Shown: piece by piece, positions 18,364 to 22,106 of the stretch
Position numbering within the stretch: position 1 is the first letter of the stretch
How the letters are laid out: the number at the start of each line of letters is the position of its first letter
Source: Tepidisphaeraceae bacterium
GTDB lineage: Bacteria; Planctomycetota; Phycisphaerae; Tepidisphaerales; Tepidisphaeraceae
DNA length: 42,925 bases
NCBI GenBank assembly: GCA_035656825.1
Contig: DASRRR010000110.1
Location: 1-42,925 of the forward strand
Direction: 5' to 3'
Made by a program: the position numbers and the translations under genes
The notes under the pieces: model-generated
The model's database searches: none
Told to the model about the DNA's origin: nothing
The model's input: only the letters and a program-made list of their open reading frames with translations

Positions 18364-18609
18364 AAGCGCTTGCATTGGAAAATTTGGGCGGTACAGTCCC
18401 GCTCTCTCGGGCGGCAACGTGCCCCTGGTGCCACGCACCTTGCAGGGAAGTCGGTGACGGAGCGACACGCTCTTATTCCGACGCGGACGCGCCGCTGTGA
18501 TGGACGTTTCAATCTTTCGGTCGGTATGCCACTGTCCTGATGCGAATCGGGATGGGAAGGTGATCGGAAGACAGTCCTAAGCCAGAAGACCGGCCCGGGA
18601 AACAGGTCT

Positions 18610-18624
18610 GACACAACGTGTGTC
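18610..18624. promoter_or_regulatory. perfect 6-3-6 palindrome GACACA-ACG-TGTGTC nested in an outer GGCCCG/CGGGCC inverted repeat (18592..18629)
   Basis: Directly visible in the intergenic region between the amidohydrolase stop (18363) and the PEP-CTERM gene start (18777). Confidence 0.35.
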
Positions 18625-18776
18625 GGGCCAACCGTATTCGTCCTCGCGATTCGGGACGGCCGGGTCTGGCTTCCAATCCAATTGTGGCTGGTTGTGCGCT
18701 CGCTCTGGCGATGGCGCGCAAGATGCACGTTTGCGTTGGCGCTTGCCCATGGCCTTCCCGCAGGAAGGAGCGACCC

Positions 18777-19721
18777 ATGGGTCGTAGCGCTATTCGGAGC
18801 GGCATCGTTGCCGCTGGTCTGATTCTGGTTGGAAATTCTTCAACCCTGCTGGCGGCAGTCTCTGCGACGGTGGTCCCCGGCACGCTGGTGCAGGGATCGG
18901 TGCAAGCCTCACTCGGGGCGGGCACGACGTACAACAATGAAGGGAGCAATCTTCGTGATTGGCCGCTGGACACGGGTGGGACGGCGACCAACAAGTACGC
19001 CATCAGCCTCACCAATGCCAATTTCAATGGCAATTCCTTTGGCGGGAGCCTGAATTCCATTCTGGCGTTTGGAAATGGAGGCGGCGTGACGCTGAAGTTC
19101 GATTCGCCGATCCATCCGGTCGATGGGCAAAAAGAATTCGGGATCTTCACCGCCCAGATGATCATCGCCTCCAGCGGCGCGATCTTCAGCGGCAACATGG
19201 AGGCCGCAATTCTCGTCAGTGATGATGGAAACAGTTGGTATACGCTGGACGGAGCCTCGGTGGCGTCTCCGACGACGTATGTGGCGACGAGTTACAAGCT
19301 CAATGCGCCGACGATGTCGTATGACTATACGACCTTCGCCAAGGGGTGGACCTACGGATCGCCCGGAACGACGCCGGCAAATCTGAGCGCGCTGGCGGTG
19401 GCGAATTACCAGACACCCATGCCGGATGACTCCCTGTTTAATGGTGCCGGGACCAATGCCCAGCGCTTGGCGCTCAAGACCGACACCTCCACGGCGGATT
19501 ATGACGCAGTCATGGGAACCTCCGGCGGAGGAAACTGGTTCGACATCTCCGGCAGCGGACTGGCCGAGGTGAATTACATTCGCCTTAATGGGGTGAACGT
19601 AGGGACCGGATCATTCAATGGCGACCGCCTGGATGCGGTGTTCGCCAACGCGCTGGCTGTGCCGGAACCAAGCGTGCTGGGCGTGATAATGATGGGAGTG
19701 ATGTTGCGACGTCGCCGGTGA
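18777..19721 (+). CDS. PEP-CTERM sorting-domain protein (secreted, exosortase substrate)
   Basis: GGAAGGAG RBS-like stretch before ATG; signal peptide; C-terminal VPEPSVLGVIMMGVMLRRRR (PEP motif + TM helix + Arg-rich tail). Confidence 0.75.
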   Translation: MGRSAIRSGIVAAGLILVGNSSTLLAAVSATVVPGTLVQGSVQASLGAGTTYNNEGSNLRDWPLDTGGTATNKYAISLTNANFNGNSFGGSLNSILAFGNGGGVTLKFDSPIHPVDGQKEFGIFTAQMIIASSGAIFSGNMEAAILVSDDGNSWYTLDGASVASPTTYVATSYKLNAPTMSYDYTTFAKGWTYGSPGTTPANLSALAVANYQTPMPDDSLFNGAGTNAQRLALKTDTSTADYDAVMGTSGGGNWFDISGSGLAEVNYIRLNGVNVGTGSFNGDRLDAVFANALAVPEPSVLGVIMMGVMLRRRR

Positions 19722-19747: not shown

Positions 19748-19775
19748 GCCCACCGACCGCGGTCGGTGGGCTTTG
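19748..19775 (+). terminator. Rho-independent terminator after the PEP-CTERM gene
   Basis: Perfect 24-nt GC-rich palindrome GCCCACCGACCGCGGTCGGTGGGC followed by TTTGG, 27 nt downstream of the stop codon. Confidence 0.6.
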
Positions 19776-19811
19776 GATGAACATGCACTCTTCCTTAGAG
19801 ACAGGAGCGCC

Positions 19812-20543
19812 ATGCGCGCGTTTACGTTGATTGAATTACTCGTGGTCATGGGGATTGTGGTGGTAGTGATGGCAATCTTGCTACCCGCGCTGGGAATTGC
19901 CCGGCAGTCGGCGCAGCGCGTGCAGTGTTTGAGCAATCTGCGGCAGATGGTGATTGCGGCCAATATTTATGCGGACCGGTTTCATGGGAGTTATCCCATT
20001 GCGTATTATTCAGATAACTCCGGCGGCGTCGTTACAGATTACGCCTGGGATTTGACGACGATTTCAGGAGGAACTGAGCCGACGCGTGTGGTGGCGGGTT
20101 TGCTTTGGGAAGGGAAAGGAGCGGGAGCGATTCAGCAGTGCCCGTCGTTTGATGGAGATGCGAATTGGCTGGTCGATCCGTTTACAGGATACAACTACAA
20201 CACCAGTTATATCGGGCATGGACAGTTTGAGACGGTGGAGGCGCCAGCGAAGATGGTGGCGATCCGCCGGCCGGTCGAGGTGGCGATCTTTGGCGATGGA
20301 CAGTGGGGAGACGGCGCAAATAAGTTTATGCGCGCCCCTTGGCCGAGTGCGGGGGATCTAGGATTCATCGGCCGCTGGGGCGGGACGCAGGGATTTCGCC
20401 ATCGCGGGAAAACCAATGTCGCATTTTGCGACGGCCATGCGGAGTCGTTGGCGGATCGGTTTGTGGAGAATGCCGATGGGGCGGAGAACGTCGCGAAAGG
20501 AACGGGCTTCTTGTCGGCGGATAATCGGGCATATGGGCAGTAG
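19812..20543 (+). CDS. DUF1559 / H-X9-DG domain protein with prepilin-type N-terminal cleavage/methylation leader
   Basis: N-terminus MRAFTLIELLVVMGIVVVVMAILLPAL (type IV pilin-like class III signal); C-terminal RHRGKTNVAFCDGHAESL contains the H-X9-DG motif. This family is abundant in Planctomycetes/Verrucomicrobia. Confidence 0.8.
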   Translation: MRAFTLIELLVVMGIVVVVMAILLPALGIARQSAQRVQCLSNLRQMVIAANIYADRFHGSYPIAYYSDNSGGVVTDYAWDLTTISGGTEPTRVVAGLLWEGKGAGAIQQCPSFDGDANWLVDPFTGYNYNTSYIGHGQFETVEAPAKMVAIRRPVEVAIFGDGQWGDGANKFMRAPWPSAGDLGFIGRWGGTQGFRHRGKTNVAFCDGHAESLADRFVENADGAENVAKGTGFLSADNRAYGQ

Positions 20544-20634
20544 TCGATTTTTATCCGGGCCTCGTTCACTTCGACCAAAACGATTCCGGGCACCCTCGGC
20601 ATTCCTGATCGGTTGGCCGCGTCTTGCCGGCGGG

Positions 20635-20808
20635 TTACATCTCGAGCGCTGGTTGCATCTCGACAGCGGGTTGCCCGGCGGCCAGCGCCCGGGCGGCGGC
20701 GAGAATGCGCTCCTGCTCGAGGCGGATTTGGGCCCGCGTCAGACGCGAGCCGCGATGTCGTCCTTTGCCATTGGCGCGGCACCTGCGCTGCCGTTCGGCG
20801 GCGGTCAT
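20635..20808 (-). CDS. possible small basic protein (MTAAERQRRCRANGKGRHRGSRLTRAQIRLEQERILAAARALAAGQPAVE...), speculative DNA-binding regulator next to the repeat array
   Basis: Only an ORF with Arg-rich N-terminus followed by a helical-looking segment; no recognisable family; transcribed away from the 21-bp array. Confidence 0.15.
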   Translation of the reverse strand: MTAAERQRRCRANGKGRHRGSRLTRAQIRLEQERILAAARALAAGQPAVEMQPALEM

Positions 20809-20964
20809 GGGTCGAAAGGTTCCCTTTGGGAAAAACGGTTGCATGGCCTTGATTCATCGGCCTATCGGCGATTTGGCTTCAGCCGTTTTGACAATGATAA
20901 CCATCGCCGCCTGGGAGCGATAAAACCGCCTTAAACGCCGCTGGCGACCATCGCGCACCCCATG

Positions 20965-21174
20965 TTTCGTGACGCGCAGTCAATCTTTCGTGACGCGCAC
21001 GCACGCTTCCGTGACGCGCAATCGCGTTTTCGTGACGCGCAACCAGGCTTTCGTGACGCGCAACCGAGCTTCCGTGACGCGCACTTGAACTTTCGTGACG
21101 CGCAATCACATCTTCGTGACGCGCCCCCATACTTCCGTGACGCGCAACTGACCTTTCGTGACGCGCCCTCGACG
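20965..21174. repeat. 10 tandem direct repeats with exact 21-bp period: 13-14-nt conserved core TTYCGTGACGCGC(A) + 7-8-nt variable segment (iteron-like array)
   Basis: Units start at 20965, 20986, 21007, 21028, 21049, 21070, 21091, 21112, 21133, 21154 (all +21). Core is invariant except T/C at position 3 and one unit with CTT; the variable part differs in every unit. Confidence 0.95.
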
Positions 21175-21277
21175 GTGAAAGGCCTGAGATGAAAGAGGGC
21201 GAATGGAAGGGGCAGCGATTCGTCTGTCAGACGCGGCAAAATAAATTGTGTCCCCTTATCAGCGCCCTTATCTGGCC

Positions 21278-21850
21278 TCAATCGGGTGCAGGGTTGGACC
21301 CACGTCCTCCAGATGCGTTCGAGACCGGCGTTCCGGATTGACGGAAGAGCACCGAAGCACCCAAAGCCCAAGCCACGATCCCCCCGCACGTTAACACGAA
21401 TAGGCCCAGAACCGTCCATGGCCCCATGGCTGGCAAGTACCCCGGCACTGGGCTCCCCGCCATCATGCAGATGCCGAGTAGGGCAGCGATTATGTTGAGA
21501 AAGGTCGCAAACCAGCCGATCCCCTTGCGACCACTGGCGTGCTTGCCCCGCGGTAATCCCAGCAACGCGGTTACTCCTGCTGCTATCAATAAAGAATCAA
21601 TCACGCGCACGAATAACAGTCGATCCGCGGTGCGATTGATGCCACACCTCACGGCAAGAAATAAAGTGCCCATGCTCAGGAGGCCGGTGGGCGTAAGCTC
21701 CGACATCGTTGGAATGTGTAAGTTAGGGTCAAACCCGCTGGCGCCGATCAGGATTAGCAGTATGGCGGCAATCCGACCGATTTTGAGGACCAAACCCGGC
21801 GCGCTCCTCGCCTCTTTCCGCCGCTTGCCCGGTGGTGATATTCCCAGCAT
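21278..21850 (-). CDS. hypothetical polytopic membrane protein (4-5 TM) in lower-GC islet
   Basis: Hydrophobic segments IAAILLILIGASGF, LLSMGTLFLAV, LLIAAGVTALLGL, FATFLNIIAALLGICMMA, VLGLFVLTCGGIVAWALGA; start chosen at Met avoiding overlap with the upstream ORF; no family recognised. Confidence 0.4.
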   Translation of the reverse strand: MLGISPPGKRRKEARSAPGLVLKIGRIAAILLILIGASGFDPNLHIPTMSELTPTGLLSMGTLFLAVRCGINRTADRLLFVRVIDSLLIAAGVTALLGLPRGKHASGRKGIGWFATFLNIIAALLGICMMAGSPVPGYLPAMGPWTVLGLFVLTCGGIVAWALGASVLFRQSGTPVSNASGGRGSNPAPD

Positions 21851-21863
21851 CTGATCGGGATCC

Positions 21864-22106
21864 TCACTCACGTCTGGCTCCCTGCCGCAACAAGAGGGTG
21901 ATGAAAAAGACCAGTAGTCCCCCATTCTCGAAAATTCGCGCAATCACCCCGTAGGTACTGCTGATGTGCGTCAATGTCTTGATGGACCATCCAGCGGATT
22001 CTCGCTGACCACCAAGCCAATCAAAAACAAAAGGCGCGGCAATTGATAAAACGAGGCTTATTGCCACGCCGAGAATCGCAATCACAGTTGCAGTCCTGAT
22101 CGTCAT
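21864..22106 (-). CDS. hypothetical small membrane protein (2 TM, 80 aa)
   Basis: MTIRTATVIAILGVAISLVLSIAAPFVF...GGLLVFFITLLL; lower local GC (~50%) than the surrounding ~62%. Confidence 0.35.
   Translation of the reverse strand: MTIRTATVIAILGVAISLVLSIAAPFVFDWLGGQRESAGWSIKTLTHISSTYGVIARIFENGGLLVFFITLLLRQGARRE

What the first reader, a model, noticed from the sequence alone, without database searches (positions are those of the whole stretch)
20965..21174. Perfectly phased 10 x 21-bp iteron-like tandem array (conserved 13-14-nt core + hypervariable 7-8 nt) in a convergent intergenic region
Ten consecutive units start exactly 21 bp apart (two helical turns). Each unit has an almost invariant core TTYCGTGACGCGC(A) followed by a 7-8-nt segment that is different in every unit. 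This is not CRISPR geometry (units far too short). It is the geometry of plasmid/phage iterons (R6K, RK2, F, pSC101: 17-22-bp direct repeats at ~22-bp spacing) or of partition centromeres bound by ribbon-helix-helix proteins. It sits between two convergently oriented genes rather than in a promoter. It sits in a lower-GC islet with unannotatable small membrane-protein genes and a small Arg-rich ORF (20635..20808, minus), which looks like the remnant of an integrated replicon or mobile element. Alternatively, the array is open in all forward frames and ORF 20962..21192 begins with ATG exactly at unit 1, giving a 10 x heptad peptide (FRDAQxx)10. The only variation inside the conserved core (T/C at unit position 3) is synonymous in that frame, so a repeat-peptide gene cannot be excluded.
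Basis: seen in the sequence. Interest (0 to 1): 0.75.

Follow-up and report, generated by a model that had tools for sequence, protein, structure and literature searches.

The report
Repeat array paired with small protein
The ten 21-bp repeats are real and form one half of a previously undescribed two-part unit, found only in Tepidisphaerales-type Planctomycetota, whose other half is the small arginine-rich protein gene just downstream that most likely binds them; it is neither a plasmid origin nor a repeat-peptide gene.

Summary
In detail: 10 units at exactly 21 bp, window 20965-21174. Read on the minus strand, each unit is GCGCGTCACG(AAA) plus about 8 variable bases.

The array is not an orphan between convergent genes. 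It lies 120-330 bp upstream of a real 69-aa gene (20844->20635, minus). In every related locus with enough upstream sequence (13 besides the window), a 4-12-unit, 21-bp-phased array with the same core precedes a homologue of this gene.

The protein family is tiny: 33 cluster representatives among 1.84 billion. It has no Pfam, PHROG, NCBIfam, PADLOC or PDB relative. Its N-terminal motif MTAAERQRRCRANGKGRHRG is near-invariant.

One divergent paralogue, in a genome that also carries a canonical copy, has a core changed at its central base in all units.

No rep, par or NTPase gene accompanies the unit, and there are no plasmid or phage matches. There is no AT-rich unwinding region and no RNA structure.

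The peptide reading fails:
- The core never varies at synonymous sites.
- 20- and 43-bp units break the frame.

Best reading: a self-contained pair of a DNA-binding protein and its site array, which works like iterons or ParR/parC but belongs to none of those families. Function is inferred. Spacers are 15-25 times more variable than flanks between near-identical strains, and this is unexplained.

The parts
20965..21174 (-). Array of 10 x 21-bp units. On the minus strand (the sense strand of the small gene) each unit reads t-GCGCGTCACG-AAA-c-nn-CG-ny.
   Evidence: Family logo from 94 unique units in 12 loci: positions 0-9 are near-invariant, AAA is about 75% conserved, and the rest is variable.
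20944..20964 (-). Degenerate eleventh (promoter-proximal) unit, in the 21-bp register.
   Evidence: TRF and the repeat finder extend the array to 20952 and 20931. Decayed proximal units are also seen in L057 and L121.
20917..20925 (-). Conserved TTTTATCGC motif between array and gene.
   Evidence: Present in the window and all 13 related loci aligned or scanned; L121 has the variant TTTTTTCG. Its distance from the last core falls on a 10.5-bp ladder (Rayleigh p about 7e-4).
20854..20861 (-). Conserved GCCGATGA motif, an inverted partial copy of TTTTATCG, 10-20 nt before the start codon.
   Evidence: Function unknown; it could be promoter, leader or a second site.
20635..20844 (-). Small gene, 69 aa. 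The invariant MTAAERQRRCRANGKGRHRG is encoded at 20808->20749.
   Evidence: Third-codon-position variation with invariant amino acids across loci. The in-frame upstream segment ..F.K..F(R)P-M is conserved at protein level. Homologues P0001-P0037. AF2 pLDDT 78: helix 15-24, loop, helix 37-55.
20630..20674 (-). 18-bp tandem duplication (2.5 copies) at the 3' end of the small gene. The window copy ends ..PAVEMQPALEM and lacks the family's C-terminal [WL]x[LIV]S[AS][ML]AA tail.

Best explanation
The array and the small gene downstream of it on the minus strand form one self-contained unit.

Shown:
- A 4-12-unit, strictly 21-bp-phased array of GCGCGTCACG(AAA) cores always lies 120-460 bp upstream of a gene.
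- That gene encodes a 57-135-aa protein with a near-invariant basic N-terminal motif.
- No other gene is constantly associated with the pair.

Inferred:
- The protein binds the cores, probably through the short basic helix AAERQRRCRA plus the GKGRHRG loop. The core is a pseudo-palindrome that contains CGTCACG.
- Spacing of 21.0 bp (two helical turns) puts all sites on one face, and a phased AAA step adds bending, so 10 or so copies assemble cooperatively into one nucleoprotein complex.
- That complex sits in helical register (10.5-bp ladder) with a conserved TTTTATCG element next to the gene's start, so it probably feeds back on the gene's own transcription.
- The many sites would act as a high-capacity sink that buffers or thresholds the free protein.
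- In most members a disordered Ala/Pro linker ends in a conserved hydrophobic-x-LSAMAA-COOH tail. This could be a ClpX-type degron or a docking peptide that recruits a partner to the array.
- The window copy keeps ten perfect cores and the DNA-binding motif but has lost that tail.
For: 1. Co-occurrence. The window and 13 other loci with enough upstream sequence all have the array upstream of the gene, in the same orientation and at 21-bp spacing. These loci are L057, L051, L074, L120, L121, L124-L131, L142, L143 and L144.
2. The gene is truly coding. Synonymous third-position changes accompany invariant residues. 28 of the 33 profile hits have E<=1e-10.
3. Constraint is at nucleotide level. 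Ten core positions are near-invariant in 94 unique units, while neighbouring bases are free.
4. Co-variation. The divergent paralogue P0037 (MSGAERQQRYRDSGKGRRRR) has 11 units with core GCRCGTGACG, in which the centre base is C->G (one search also lists a degenerate twelfth unit, GCGCGTGCCA). The same MAG (JBBRTW01) also holds a canonical pair, L051.
5. The core is absent elsewhere in the 43-kb window.
6. The array is in helical register with the TTTTATCG motif.
7. No RNA structure was found on either strand: z = -0.42 and +0.86.
8. The logic of specificity pairs matches ParR/parC families that coexist in one cell (PMC9426499).
Against: - There are no binding data.
- The protein matches no known DNA-binding fold.
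- Co-variation rests on one lineage.
- The array lies 40-140 bp upstream of the nearest promoter-proximal motif rather than over a recognisable promoter.
- Ten sites is far more than simple autoregulation needs.
- Spacers diverge 15-25 times faster than flanks between near-identical strains, which a passive operator array does not predict.
- No output other than the gene itself is known.
- All loci come from metagenome assemblies, and many are broken at the array.
Confidence: 0.55

Rival explanations
1. The array is a centromere or iteron remnant of an integrated plasmid or phage. It would serve replication control or partition, with the small protein as adaptor and the initiator or motor either lost or supplied in trans by a host ParA-type ATPase.
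For: The geometry (21-bp phasing, conserved 13 plus variable 8, about 10 units) and a small protein with a disordered linker and conserved C-terminal peptide resemble ParR/parC, omega and ParG/parH (own knowledge; PMC2241845, PMC3130281). The unit sits among orphan genes and toxin-antitoxin genes in several loci. It is absent from a related genome that keeps the neighbouring operon.
Against: No Rep, ParA, ParM or TubZ gene is present within 2-20 kb in any locus. There is no hit in 72,556 plasmids or 50,697 phages, by DNA or protein. No array of this family occurs in IMG/VR. There is no AT-rich unwinding element; the lowest GC in 80-bp windows is 0.50. No RHH or winged-helix fold is predicted.
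Confidence: 0.12
2. The cores are sites for a different host regulator, and the small gene is merely the regulated target. The small protein would then do something other than bind the array.
For: The protein has no recognisable DNA-binding domain. Two other conserved motifs, TTTTATCG and CGATGAA, show that further factors act here.
Against: The core is absent elsewhere in 43 kb, so there is no regulon signal. Two specificity variants exist in one genome, each next to a correspondingly divergent protein, which would require two host regulators. The extreme conservation of a basic 20-mer fits nucleic-acid contact.
Confidence: 0.13
3. The array is transcribed and acts as RNA. It could be a repeat RNA bound or processed together with the Arg-rich peptide (like type III toxin-antitoxin ToxI, or a protein sponge), or it could be cut into 21-nt units with variable seeds.
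For: A tandem array directly upstream of a small gene in fixed orientation. An arginine-rich motif reminiscent of lambda N or Rev peptides (own knowledge). Variable segments between constant handles.
Against: Folding energy is no better than shuffles on either strand. There is no Rfam hit and no conserved terminator between array and gene. Exact 21.0-bp phasing and the 10.5-bp register with a downstream DNA motif point to the double helix. The protein is far smaller than ToxN-type toxins and has no PADLOC hit.
Confidence: 0.08
4. The array encodes a heptad-repeat peptide: (FRDAQxx)n on the plus strand, or CASRKxx / ARHExxx on the minus strand.
For: The FRDAQ and CASRK frames are open across the window array, and an ATG sits at unit 1.
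Against: CGT-GAC-GCG never changes at synonymous positions in 94 units from 12 loci. A 20-bp unit (L124/L125) and a 43-bp double unit (L051) shift every frame. The FRDAQ frame has a stop in L130. Flank variants turn F into K or P. There are no Pfam or homology hits beyond the repeat itself. Five of the six frames are open in the core by composition alone.
Confidence: 0.02

Closest known systems
ParR/parC and related small centromere-binding proteins with repeat centromeres (R1, pSK41, C. perfringens ParMRC; omega/heptads of pSM19035; ParG/parH of TP228)
   Same: About 10 phased direct repeats lie next to the gene of a small protein that binds them cooperatively. An N-terminal DNA-binding part is followed by a flexible region and a C-terminal or terminal peptide for a partner. 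Autoregulation works through the same sites. Orthogonal protein/site specificity variants coexist in one cell (PMC2241845, PMC9426499, PMC3130281; the rest is own knowledge).
   Different: No motor NTPase gene is present. The unit is chromosomal and not found on any plasmid. The unit is 21 bp rather than 7-11 or 20 bp. No ribbon-helix-helix is predicted and there is no sequence relationship. The array is separated from the promoter-proximal motifs.
Iterons of theta-replicating plasmids (R6K gamma ori, RK2 oriV, F ori2/incC, pSC101, P1 incC/incA)
   Same: Direct repeats with a conserved core of 13-17 bp and a variable remainder, at 21-22-bp (two-turn) spacing. Arrays of 3-9 that also titrate their binding protein, as in P1 incA (own knowledge).
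   Different: No Rep initiator is present (such proteins are 30-40 kDa winged-helix proteins; here the protein is 6-12 kDa). There is no AT-rich unwinding region, no DnaA boxes and no plasmid context.
Type III toxin-antitoxin loci (toxIN, cptIN, tenpIN)
   Same: A tandem repeat array sits immediately upstream of a protein gene, in fixed orientation.
   Different: In those loci the repeats are 34-40 nt, near-identical over their whole length and fold into pseudoknots; a terminator separates array and gene; the toxin is a 170-200-aa endoribonuclease. None of this is seen here.
bHLH basic region / E-box recognition (Max, Myc, USF)
   Same: An E-R-x-R-R motif lies in a short basic helix followed by loop and helix. 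The DNA core contains the E-box half-site CACG, and half the units of the variant array in L142 contain a full CACGTG. That Glu and the fourth-following Arg read CAC-G in Max is own knowledge.
   Different: No detectable homology: Pfam HLH gives no hit in 34 members at E<=10, and hhalign against Max gives probability 0.15%. The helix is only about 10 residues with no hydrophobic helix-1 extension. The sites are direct repeats, not single palindromes.

Membership tests
Theta-plasmid iteron origin | Direct repeats of 17-22 bp at about 22-bp phasing | tested here: met
   10 units at exactly 21 bp. The same spacing holds in 13 related loci.
Theta-plasmid iteron origin | Adjacent rep gene encoding an iteron-binding initiator | tested here: not met
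   No Rep-family Pfam hit in the neighbours of any locus. The only constant neighbour is a 57-135-aa protein with no family.
Theta-plasmid iteron origin | A+T-rich unwinding element and DnaA boxes beside the repeats | tested here: not met
   Lowest GC in 80-bp windows within +/-600 bp is 0.50. The conserved TTTTATCGC shares only TTATC with a DnaA box.
Theta-plasmid iteron origin | Residence on a plasmid or phage replicon | tested here: not met
   No DNA or protein match in PLSDB or INPHARED. No family array in IMG/VR.
Partition centromere plus small centromere-binding protein (types Ib, II, III) | Repeat array next to the gene of a small DNA-binding adaptor | tested here: met
   Array and small gene co-occur in all informative loci.
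Partition centromere plus small centromere-binding protein (types Ib, II, III) | Adjacent motor NTPase (ParA, ParM or TubZ) | tested here: not met
   None among the called genes or ORFs of 12 loci.
Partition centromere plus small centromere-binding protein (types Ib, II, III) | Ribbon-helix-helix or winged-helix fold in the adaptor | tested here: not met
   The AF2 model has two helices and no strand (pLDDT 78). No RHH or HTH Pfam hit. No Foldseek PDB match.
Partition centromere plus small centromere-binding protein (types Ib, II, III) | Sequence-specific binding of the adaptor to the repeats | not testable with these tools
   Only indirect evidence: co-occurrence and one co-variation event.
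Type III toxin-antitoxin | Structured repeat RNA (34-40 nt) and a terminator before a ToxN-like toxin | tested here: not met
   The unit is 21 nt. Folding z-scores are -0.42 and +0.86. No conserved terminator. No PADLOC hit.
CRISPR array | Repeats of 23-50 nt separated by spacers of 26-72 nt | tested here: not met
   The whole unit is 21 bp. There are no cas genes in the window.
bHLH transcription factors | Match to the HLH profile (basic region continuous with amphipathic helix 1, loop, helix 2) | tested here: not met
   No PF00010 hit in 34 members at E<=10. hhalign against Max gives probability 0.15%. Only the ERxRR motif and the CACG site resemble it.
Protein-coding heptad repeat | Variation concentrated at synonymous sites, with the frame preserved across homologues | tested here: not met
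   Core codons are invariant at the third position in 94 units. 20-bp and 43-bp units break the frame, and stops occur in candidate frames in some loci.

The most novel reading that the evidence does not exclude
The array may not be a passive set of operators. It could be an actively diversifying element: transcribed and cut into 21-nt units in which the invariant 10-13-nt handle is held by the Arg-rich peptide and the hypervariable 8-11 nt act as guide or seed sequences, giving a minimal ribonucleoprotein targeting system. Alternatively, the tightly bound array could provoke local mutagenesis or recombination that keeps the spacers turning over. The 15-25-fold excess of spacer divergence between near-identical strains is the observation that keeps this open.
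Probability: 0.05. Interest if true: 0.9.

Novelty: new variant of a known kind. Interest (0 to 1): 0.55.

Why it matters
The finding defines an undescribed protein family and its probable DNA target in Phycisphaerae, a poorly studied class of Planctomycetota. The recognition pair is unusually clean and short: a 20-residue invariant basic motif and a 10-bp invariant core. One natural specificity switch is available for testing.

If binding is confirmed, the unit would be a compact, orthogonal protein/site module. It would also be a stand-alone chromosomal example of iteron- or centromere-like architecture without a replication initiator or motor. That raises the question of what such arrays are for outside plasmids.

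The local hypervariability of the spacers and the 10.5-bp register with the promoter-proximal motif are testable oddities.

Tried and rejected
- **Pan-phylum family.** The genome-contig scan for two cores 21 bp apart returned 119 loci from many phyla. Reading them showed ordinary whole-unit 21-bp tandem repeats that contain the searched word by ascertainment (L022, L028, L032, L037, L045, L075 and others). Only the Tepidisphaerales/Phycisphaerales loci L051, L057 and L074 share the core-plus-variable-spacer design and the gene. L063 has a variant core, but its gene side is cut off.
- **Conserved partner gene.** All-against-all ORF comparison of 12 loci found nothing shared beyond the array and the small gene, except in near-identical strains. 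Three 151-aa neighbours are unrelated.
- **Prophage packaging site.** L120 has a weak small-terminase-like HTH protein, but the adjacent 436-aa protein is not a terminase, and this context is unique.
- **Viral link.** The only IMG/VR protein hit (L123) is a phage replication-initiation protein (phrog_1408) that shares just a 16-aa motif and has no array.
- **Transposon ends.** There is no second, inverted array within 20 kb in the window.
- **Fold and structure searches.** They found nothing.
- **Presence/absence at the orthologous site.** The neighbouring membrane protein is an orphan. A related MAG keeps the riboswitch, PEP-CTERM and DUF1559 genes but not the unit. The flanks differ as well, so no clean empty site was obtained.
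- **Literature.** Nothing was found for the core or the peptide motif.

Full report
**1. The observation**

The sequence at 20965-21174 holds ten head-to-tail units that start exactly 21 bp apart. TRF reports the array with periods 21, 42 and 63 and scores of 165-250. The 13-mer TTYCGTGACGCGC is exact in nine units and has one mismatch in the eighth. With up to two mismatches the window has 13 matches against 4.8 +/- 2.2 in shuffles, and no shuffle reaches 13. The 10-mer core is exact in all ten units and occurs nowhere else in 43 kb. The remaining 8 bases differ in every unit. A decayed eleventh unit continues the register at 20944-20964.

**2. The array has a constant partner**

- A genome-collection scan for two cores 21 bp apart gave 119 loci.
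  - Most are unrelated whole-unit tandem repeats that contain the searched word by ascertainment.
  - Loci from Tepidisphaerales/Phycisphaerales MAGs (L051, L057, L074) show the same design: invariant core plus variable spacer.
- tblastx showed that these loci also share the small Arg-rich ORF next to the array.
- Searching that ORF against 5.8 billion proteins gave 14 relatives. A profile search of 1.84 billion cluster representatives gave 33, all small.
- Fetching their contigs showed the same arrangement wherever enough upstream DNA is present.
  - A 4-12-unit array at 21-bp spacing lies upstream; one unit is 20 bp and one double unit is 43 bp.
  - The core reads GCGCGTCACG on the gene's sense strand.
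  - The array lies 150-460 bp upstream of the conserved Met of MTAAERQ.
  - Many contigs break inside the array, as expected for assemblers.

In the window the gene is on the minus strand. The array therefore sits in its upstream region, downstream of an orphan membrane-protein gene on the same strand, and not simply between convergent genes.

**3. The gene is real**

- Across loci the first 20 codons change only at third positions while the residues stay MTAAERQRRCRANGKGRHRG.
- An in-frame upstream segment (..F.K..F-R/K-P-M) is conserved at protein level through synonymous changes. The true start in the window is therefore the ATG at 20844, giving 69 aa.
- The family (alignment A2) has three parts:
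  - a near-invariant basic motif;
  - an Ala/Pro-rich variable linker;
  - in about 60% of members, a conserved extreme C-terminus [WL]x[LIV]S[AS][ML]AA.
- The window copy lacks this tail. Its 3' end carries an 18-bp tandem duplication.
- AlphaFold2 with the family alignment gives helix 15-24 (AAERQRRCRA), a loop (NGKGRHRGSRLT) and helix 37-55, with mean pLDDT 78.
- Nothing matches in Pfam, PHROGs, NCBIfam, PADLOC, PDB sequences or PDB folds.

**4. Constraint on the array is on nucleotides, not on a peptide**

- In 94 unique units from 12 loci the ten core positions are 97-100% conserved. The next three are about 75% A, and the rest is variable apart from a weak CG one helical turn from the core centre.
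- Unit lengths of 20 and 43 bp shift every frame.
- Stops occur in candidate frames in some loci.
- Five of the six frames are open in the core by composition alone.

The repeat-peptide reading is rejected.

**5. Evidence that the protein and the core recognise each other**

Direct binding cannot be tested here. The indirect evidence is as follows.

- Array and gene co-occur strictly, and no third constant gene exists.
- Both the 20-residue motif and the 10-bp core are extremely conserved.
- There is one natural specificity switch.
  - The most divergent family member, P0037 (MSGAERQQRYRDSGKGRRRR), has 11 units with core GCRCGTGACG (plus a degenerate twelfth), in which the central base is C->G.
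  - The flanking GC(G/A) and AAA, and the downstream TTTTATCGC and GCCGATGA motifs, are unchanged.
  - This paralogue is in the same MAG (JBBRTW01) as the canonical pair L051, so two orthogonal pairs coexist in one genome.
  - The same logic is documented for ParR/parC families (PMC9426499).
- Two moderately divergent members (P0036, P0027) keep the canonical core.

**6. Further anatomy**

- Between array and start codon lie two conserved motifs that are partial inverted copies of each other: TTTTATCG(C) and GCCGATGA.
- The distance from the last core to TTTTATCG takes the values 42, 52, 52, 62, 73, 84, 84, 84, 94 and 104 bp, with outliers at 87 and 140.
  - This is a 10.5-bp ladder: Rayleigh p is about 7e-4 for period 10.5, and not significant for periods 7, 9, 12 or 21.
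  - The loci are not all independent.
  - Together with the exact two-turn unit, this points to a requirement for a shared face of the double helix.
- Folding of the array as RNA on either strand is no better than shuffles, and Rfam finds nothing there.

**7. What it is not**

- No Rep, ParA, ParM, TubZ, integrase or transposase gene accompanies the unit.
- The array and the protein find nothing in 72,556 plasmids or 50,697 phage genomes.
- IMG/VR has only two-copy chance matches.
- GC never falls below 0.50 near the array.
- Neighbours vary: housekeeping genes, orphan small genes, and toxin-antitoxin pairs in three loci.
- A related Tepidisphaeraceae MAG keeps the adjacent riboswitch, PEP-CTERM and DUF1559 genes but lacks the unit.

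The unit therefore behaves as an accessory, non-syntenic chromosomal element. It is not a recognisable replicon remnant.

**8. An unexplained feature: hypervariable spacers**

- Two independent pairs of near-identical strain contigs were compared.
  - L128/L129 differ at 20% of spacer positions (13/65) against 0.9% of flanking positions (18/1988).
  - L124/L127 differ at 32% of spacer positions (25/77) against 1.3% of flanking positions (7/545).
  - Cores show 0-1 change. Fisher p is 1e-12 and 8e-19.
- Units remain in register and most differences look like point substitutions.
- Some spacers resemble others in the same array, so short-patch conversion seeded by the identical cores is a plausible ordinary cause.
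- Assembly artefacts at contig ends are not excluded.

**9. Mechanism proposed**

Shown: the anatomy, the co-occurrence, the coding status and the nucleotide-level constraint.

Inferred:
- The small protein binds each core.
- Two-turn phasing and phased A-steps allow a cooperative one-face complex.
- That complex communicates with the promoter-proximal element and so feeds back on the gene.
- The multi-site array buffers or thresholds free protein.
- The C-terminal tail is a degron or a docking peptide.

A speculative detail: E-R-x-R-R in the basic helix and CACG in the core (CACGTG in half the variant units) mirror the Glu/Arg-CAC-G contacts of bHLH proteins (own knowledge). Profile tests show no homology.

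**10. Comparison and verdict**

The unit works like iterons or small-adaptor centromeres in its geometry, cooperative binding, titration and orthogonal specificities. It fails the defining tests of each family: no initiator, no unwinding element, no motor, no RHH fold and no plasmid context. It is best filed as a new variant of the known kind 'phased direct-repeat array plus cognate small binding protein'. It is built on a new protein family confined, so far, to Phycisphaerae. Interest is moderate: a clean, testable recognition pair with two odd properties, but no demonstrated function.

Noticed in passing
window 1-42925 (blocks at 1-4 kb, 5-17 kb, 24-27 kb, 28-31 kb, 37-42 kb): There are kb-scale blocks of very strong GC skew (+/-0.3 to 0.43) that switch sign several times. 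They are interrupted by zero-skew blocks at 17-24 kb (where the unit sits) and 31-37 kb. Coding strand does not explain this: SNF2 helicase and VWA genes (minus) and HlyD, AcrB and GH92 genes (plus) all lie in the same +0.33 block. Related loci show weak skew, except L057.
   Followed up: partly
window 18392-18612 (+), with ORFs 18618-19721 and 19773-20543: A cobalamin riboswitch (74 bits) lies directly upstream of a PEP-CTERM protein and a DUF1559/H-X9-DG pseudopilin-like protein, which is unusual cargo for this riboswitch. The riboswitch and both genes are conserved in a related Tepidisphaeraceae MAG (L146), there next to a phage-type integrase.
   Followed up: partly
L123 649-1299 (+) (IMG/VR contig): A phage replication-initiation protein (phrog_1408, DnaT-like C-terminal domain) contains TTAAERQRRCRANKKG, nearly the family's invariant motif, with no 21-bp array nearby. 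This could be a shared short motif or chance.
   Followed up: partly
L063 2299-2454: A Tepidisphaerales contig carries 9 x 21-bp units with a third core variant, GCGCGCCACGTAAA on the presumed gene strand, and almost identical spacers. The side where the small gene would lie is cut off by the end of the stored locus.
   Followed up: no
L121 6102-6362; L130 855-1536; L143 3155-3642: Toxin-antitoxin-type genes sit immediately next to the unit in three loci: a DUF2281 antitoxin-like gene, an HTH_37 plus Gp49/HigB-like pair, and a ParE-like gene with a small partner.
   Followed up: no
L045 (Prosthecobacter), L032, L037, L075, L022, L028: Long, whole-unit 21-bp tandem arrays (up to 22 units) in Verrucomicrobiota, Deltaproteobacteria, Thermoanaerobaculia and Actinomycetota contain the same 10-mer by ascertainment. 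They are unrelated to the family and their nature was not examined.
   Followed up: no
L132, L135, L136, L138, L141 (IMG/VR): A recurrent phage region contains two GCGCGTCACG words 21 bp apart amid several GTCACG/GTGAC repeats, which is iteron-like. No homologue of the small protein is present.
   Followed up: no
window 21278-22106 (-): Two small predicted membrane proteins upstream of the array are orphans. The 221-aa product has no relative other than itself among 5.8 billion proteins.
   Followed up: yes
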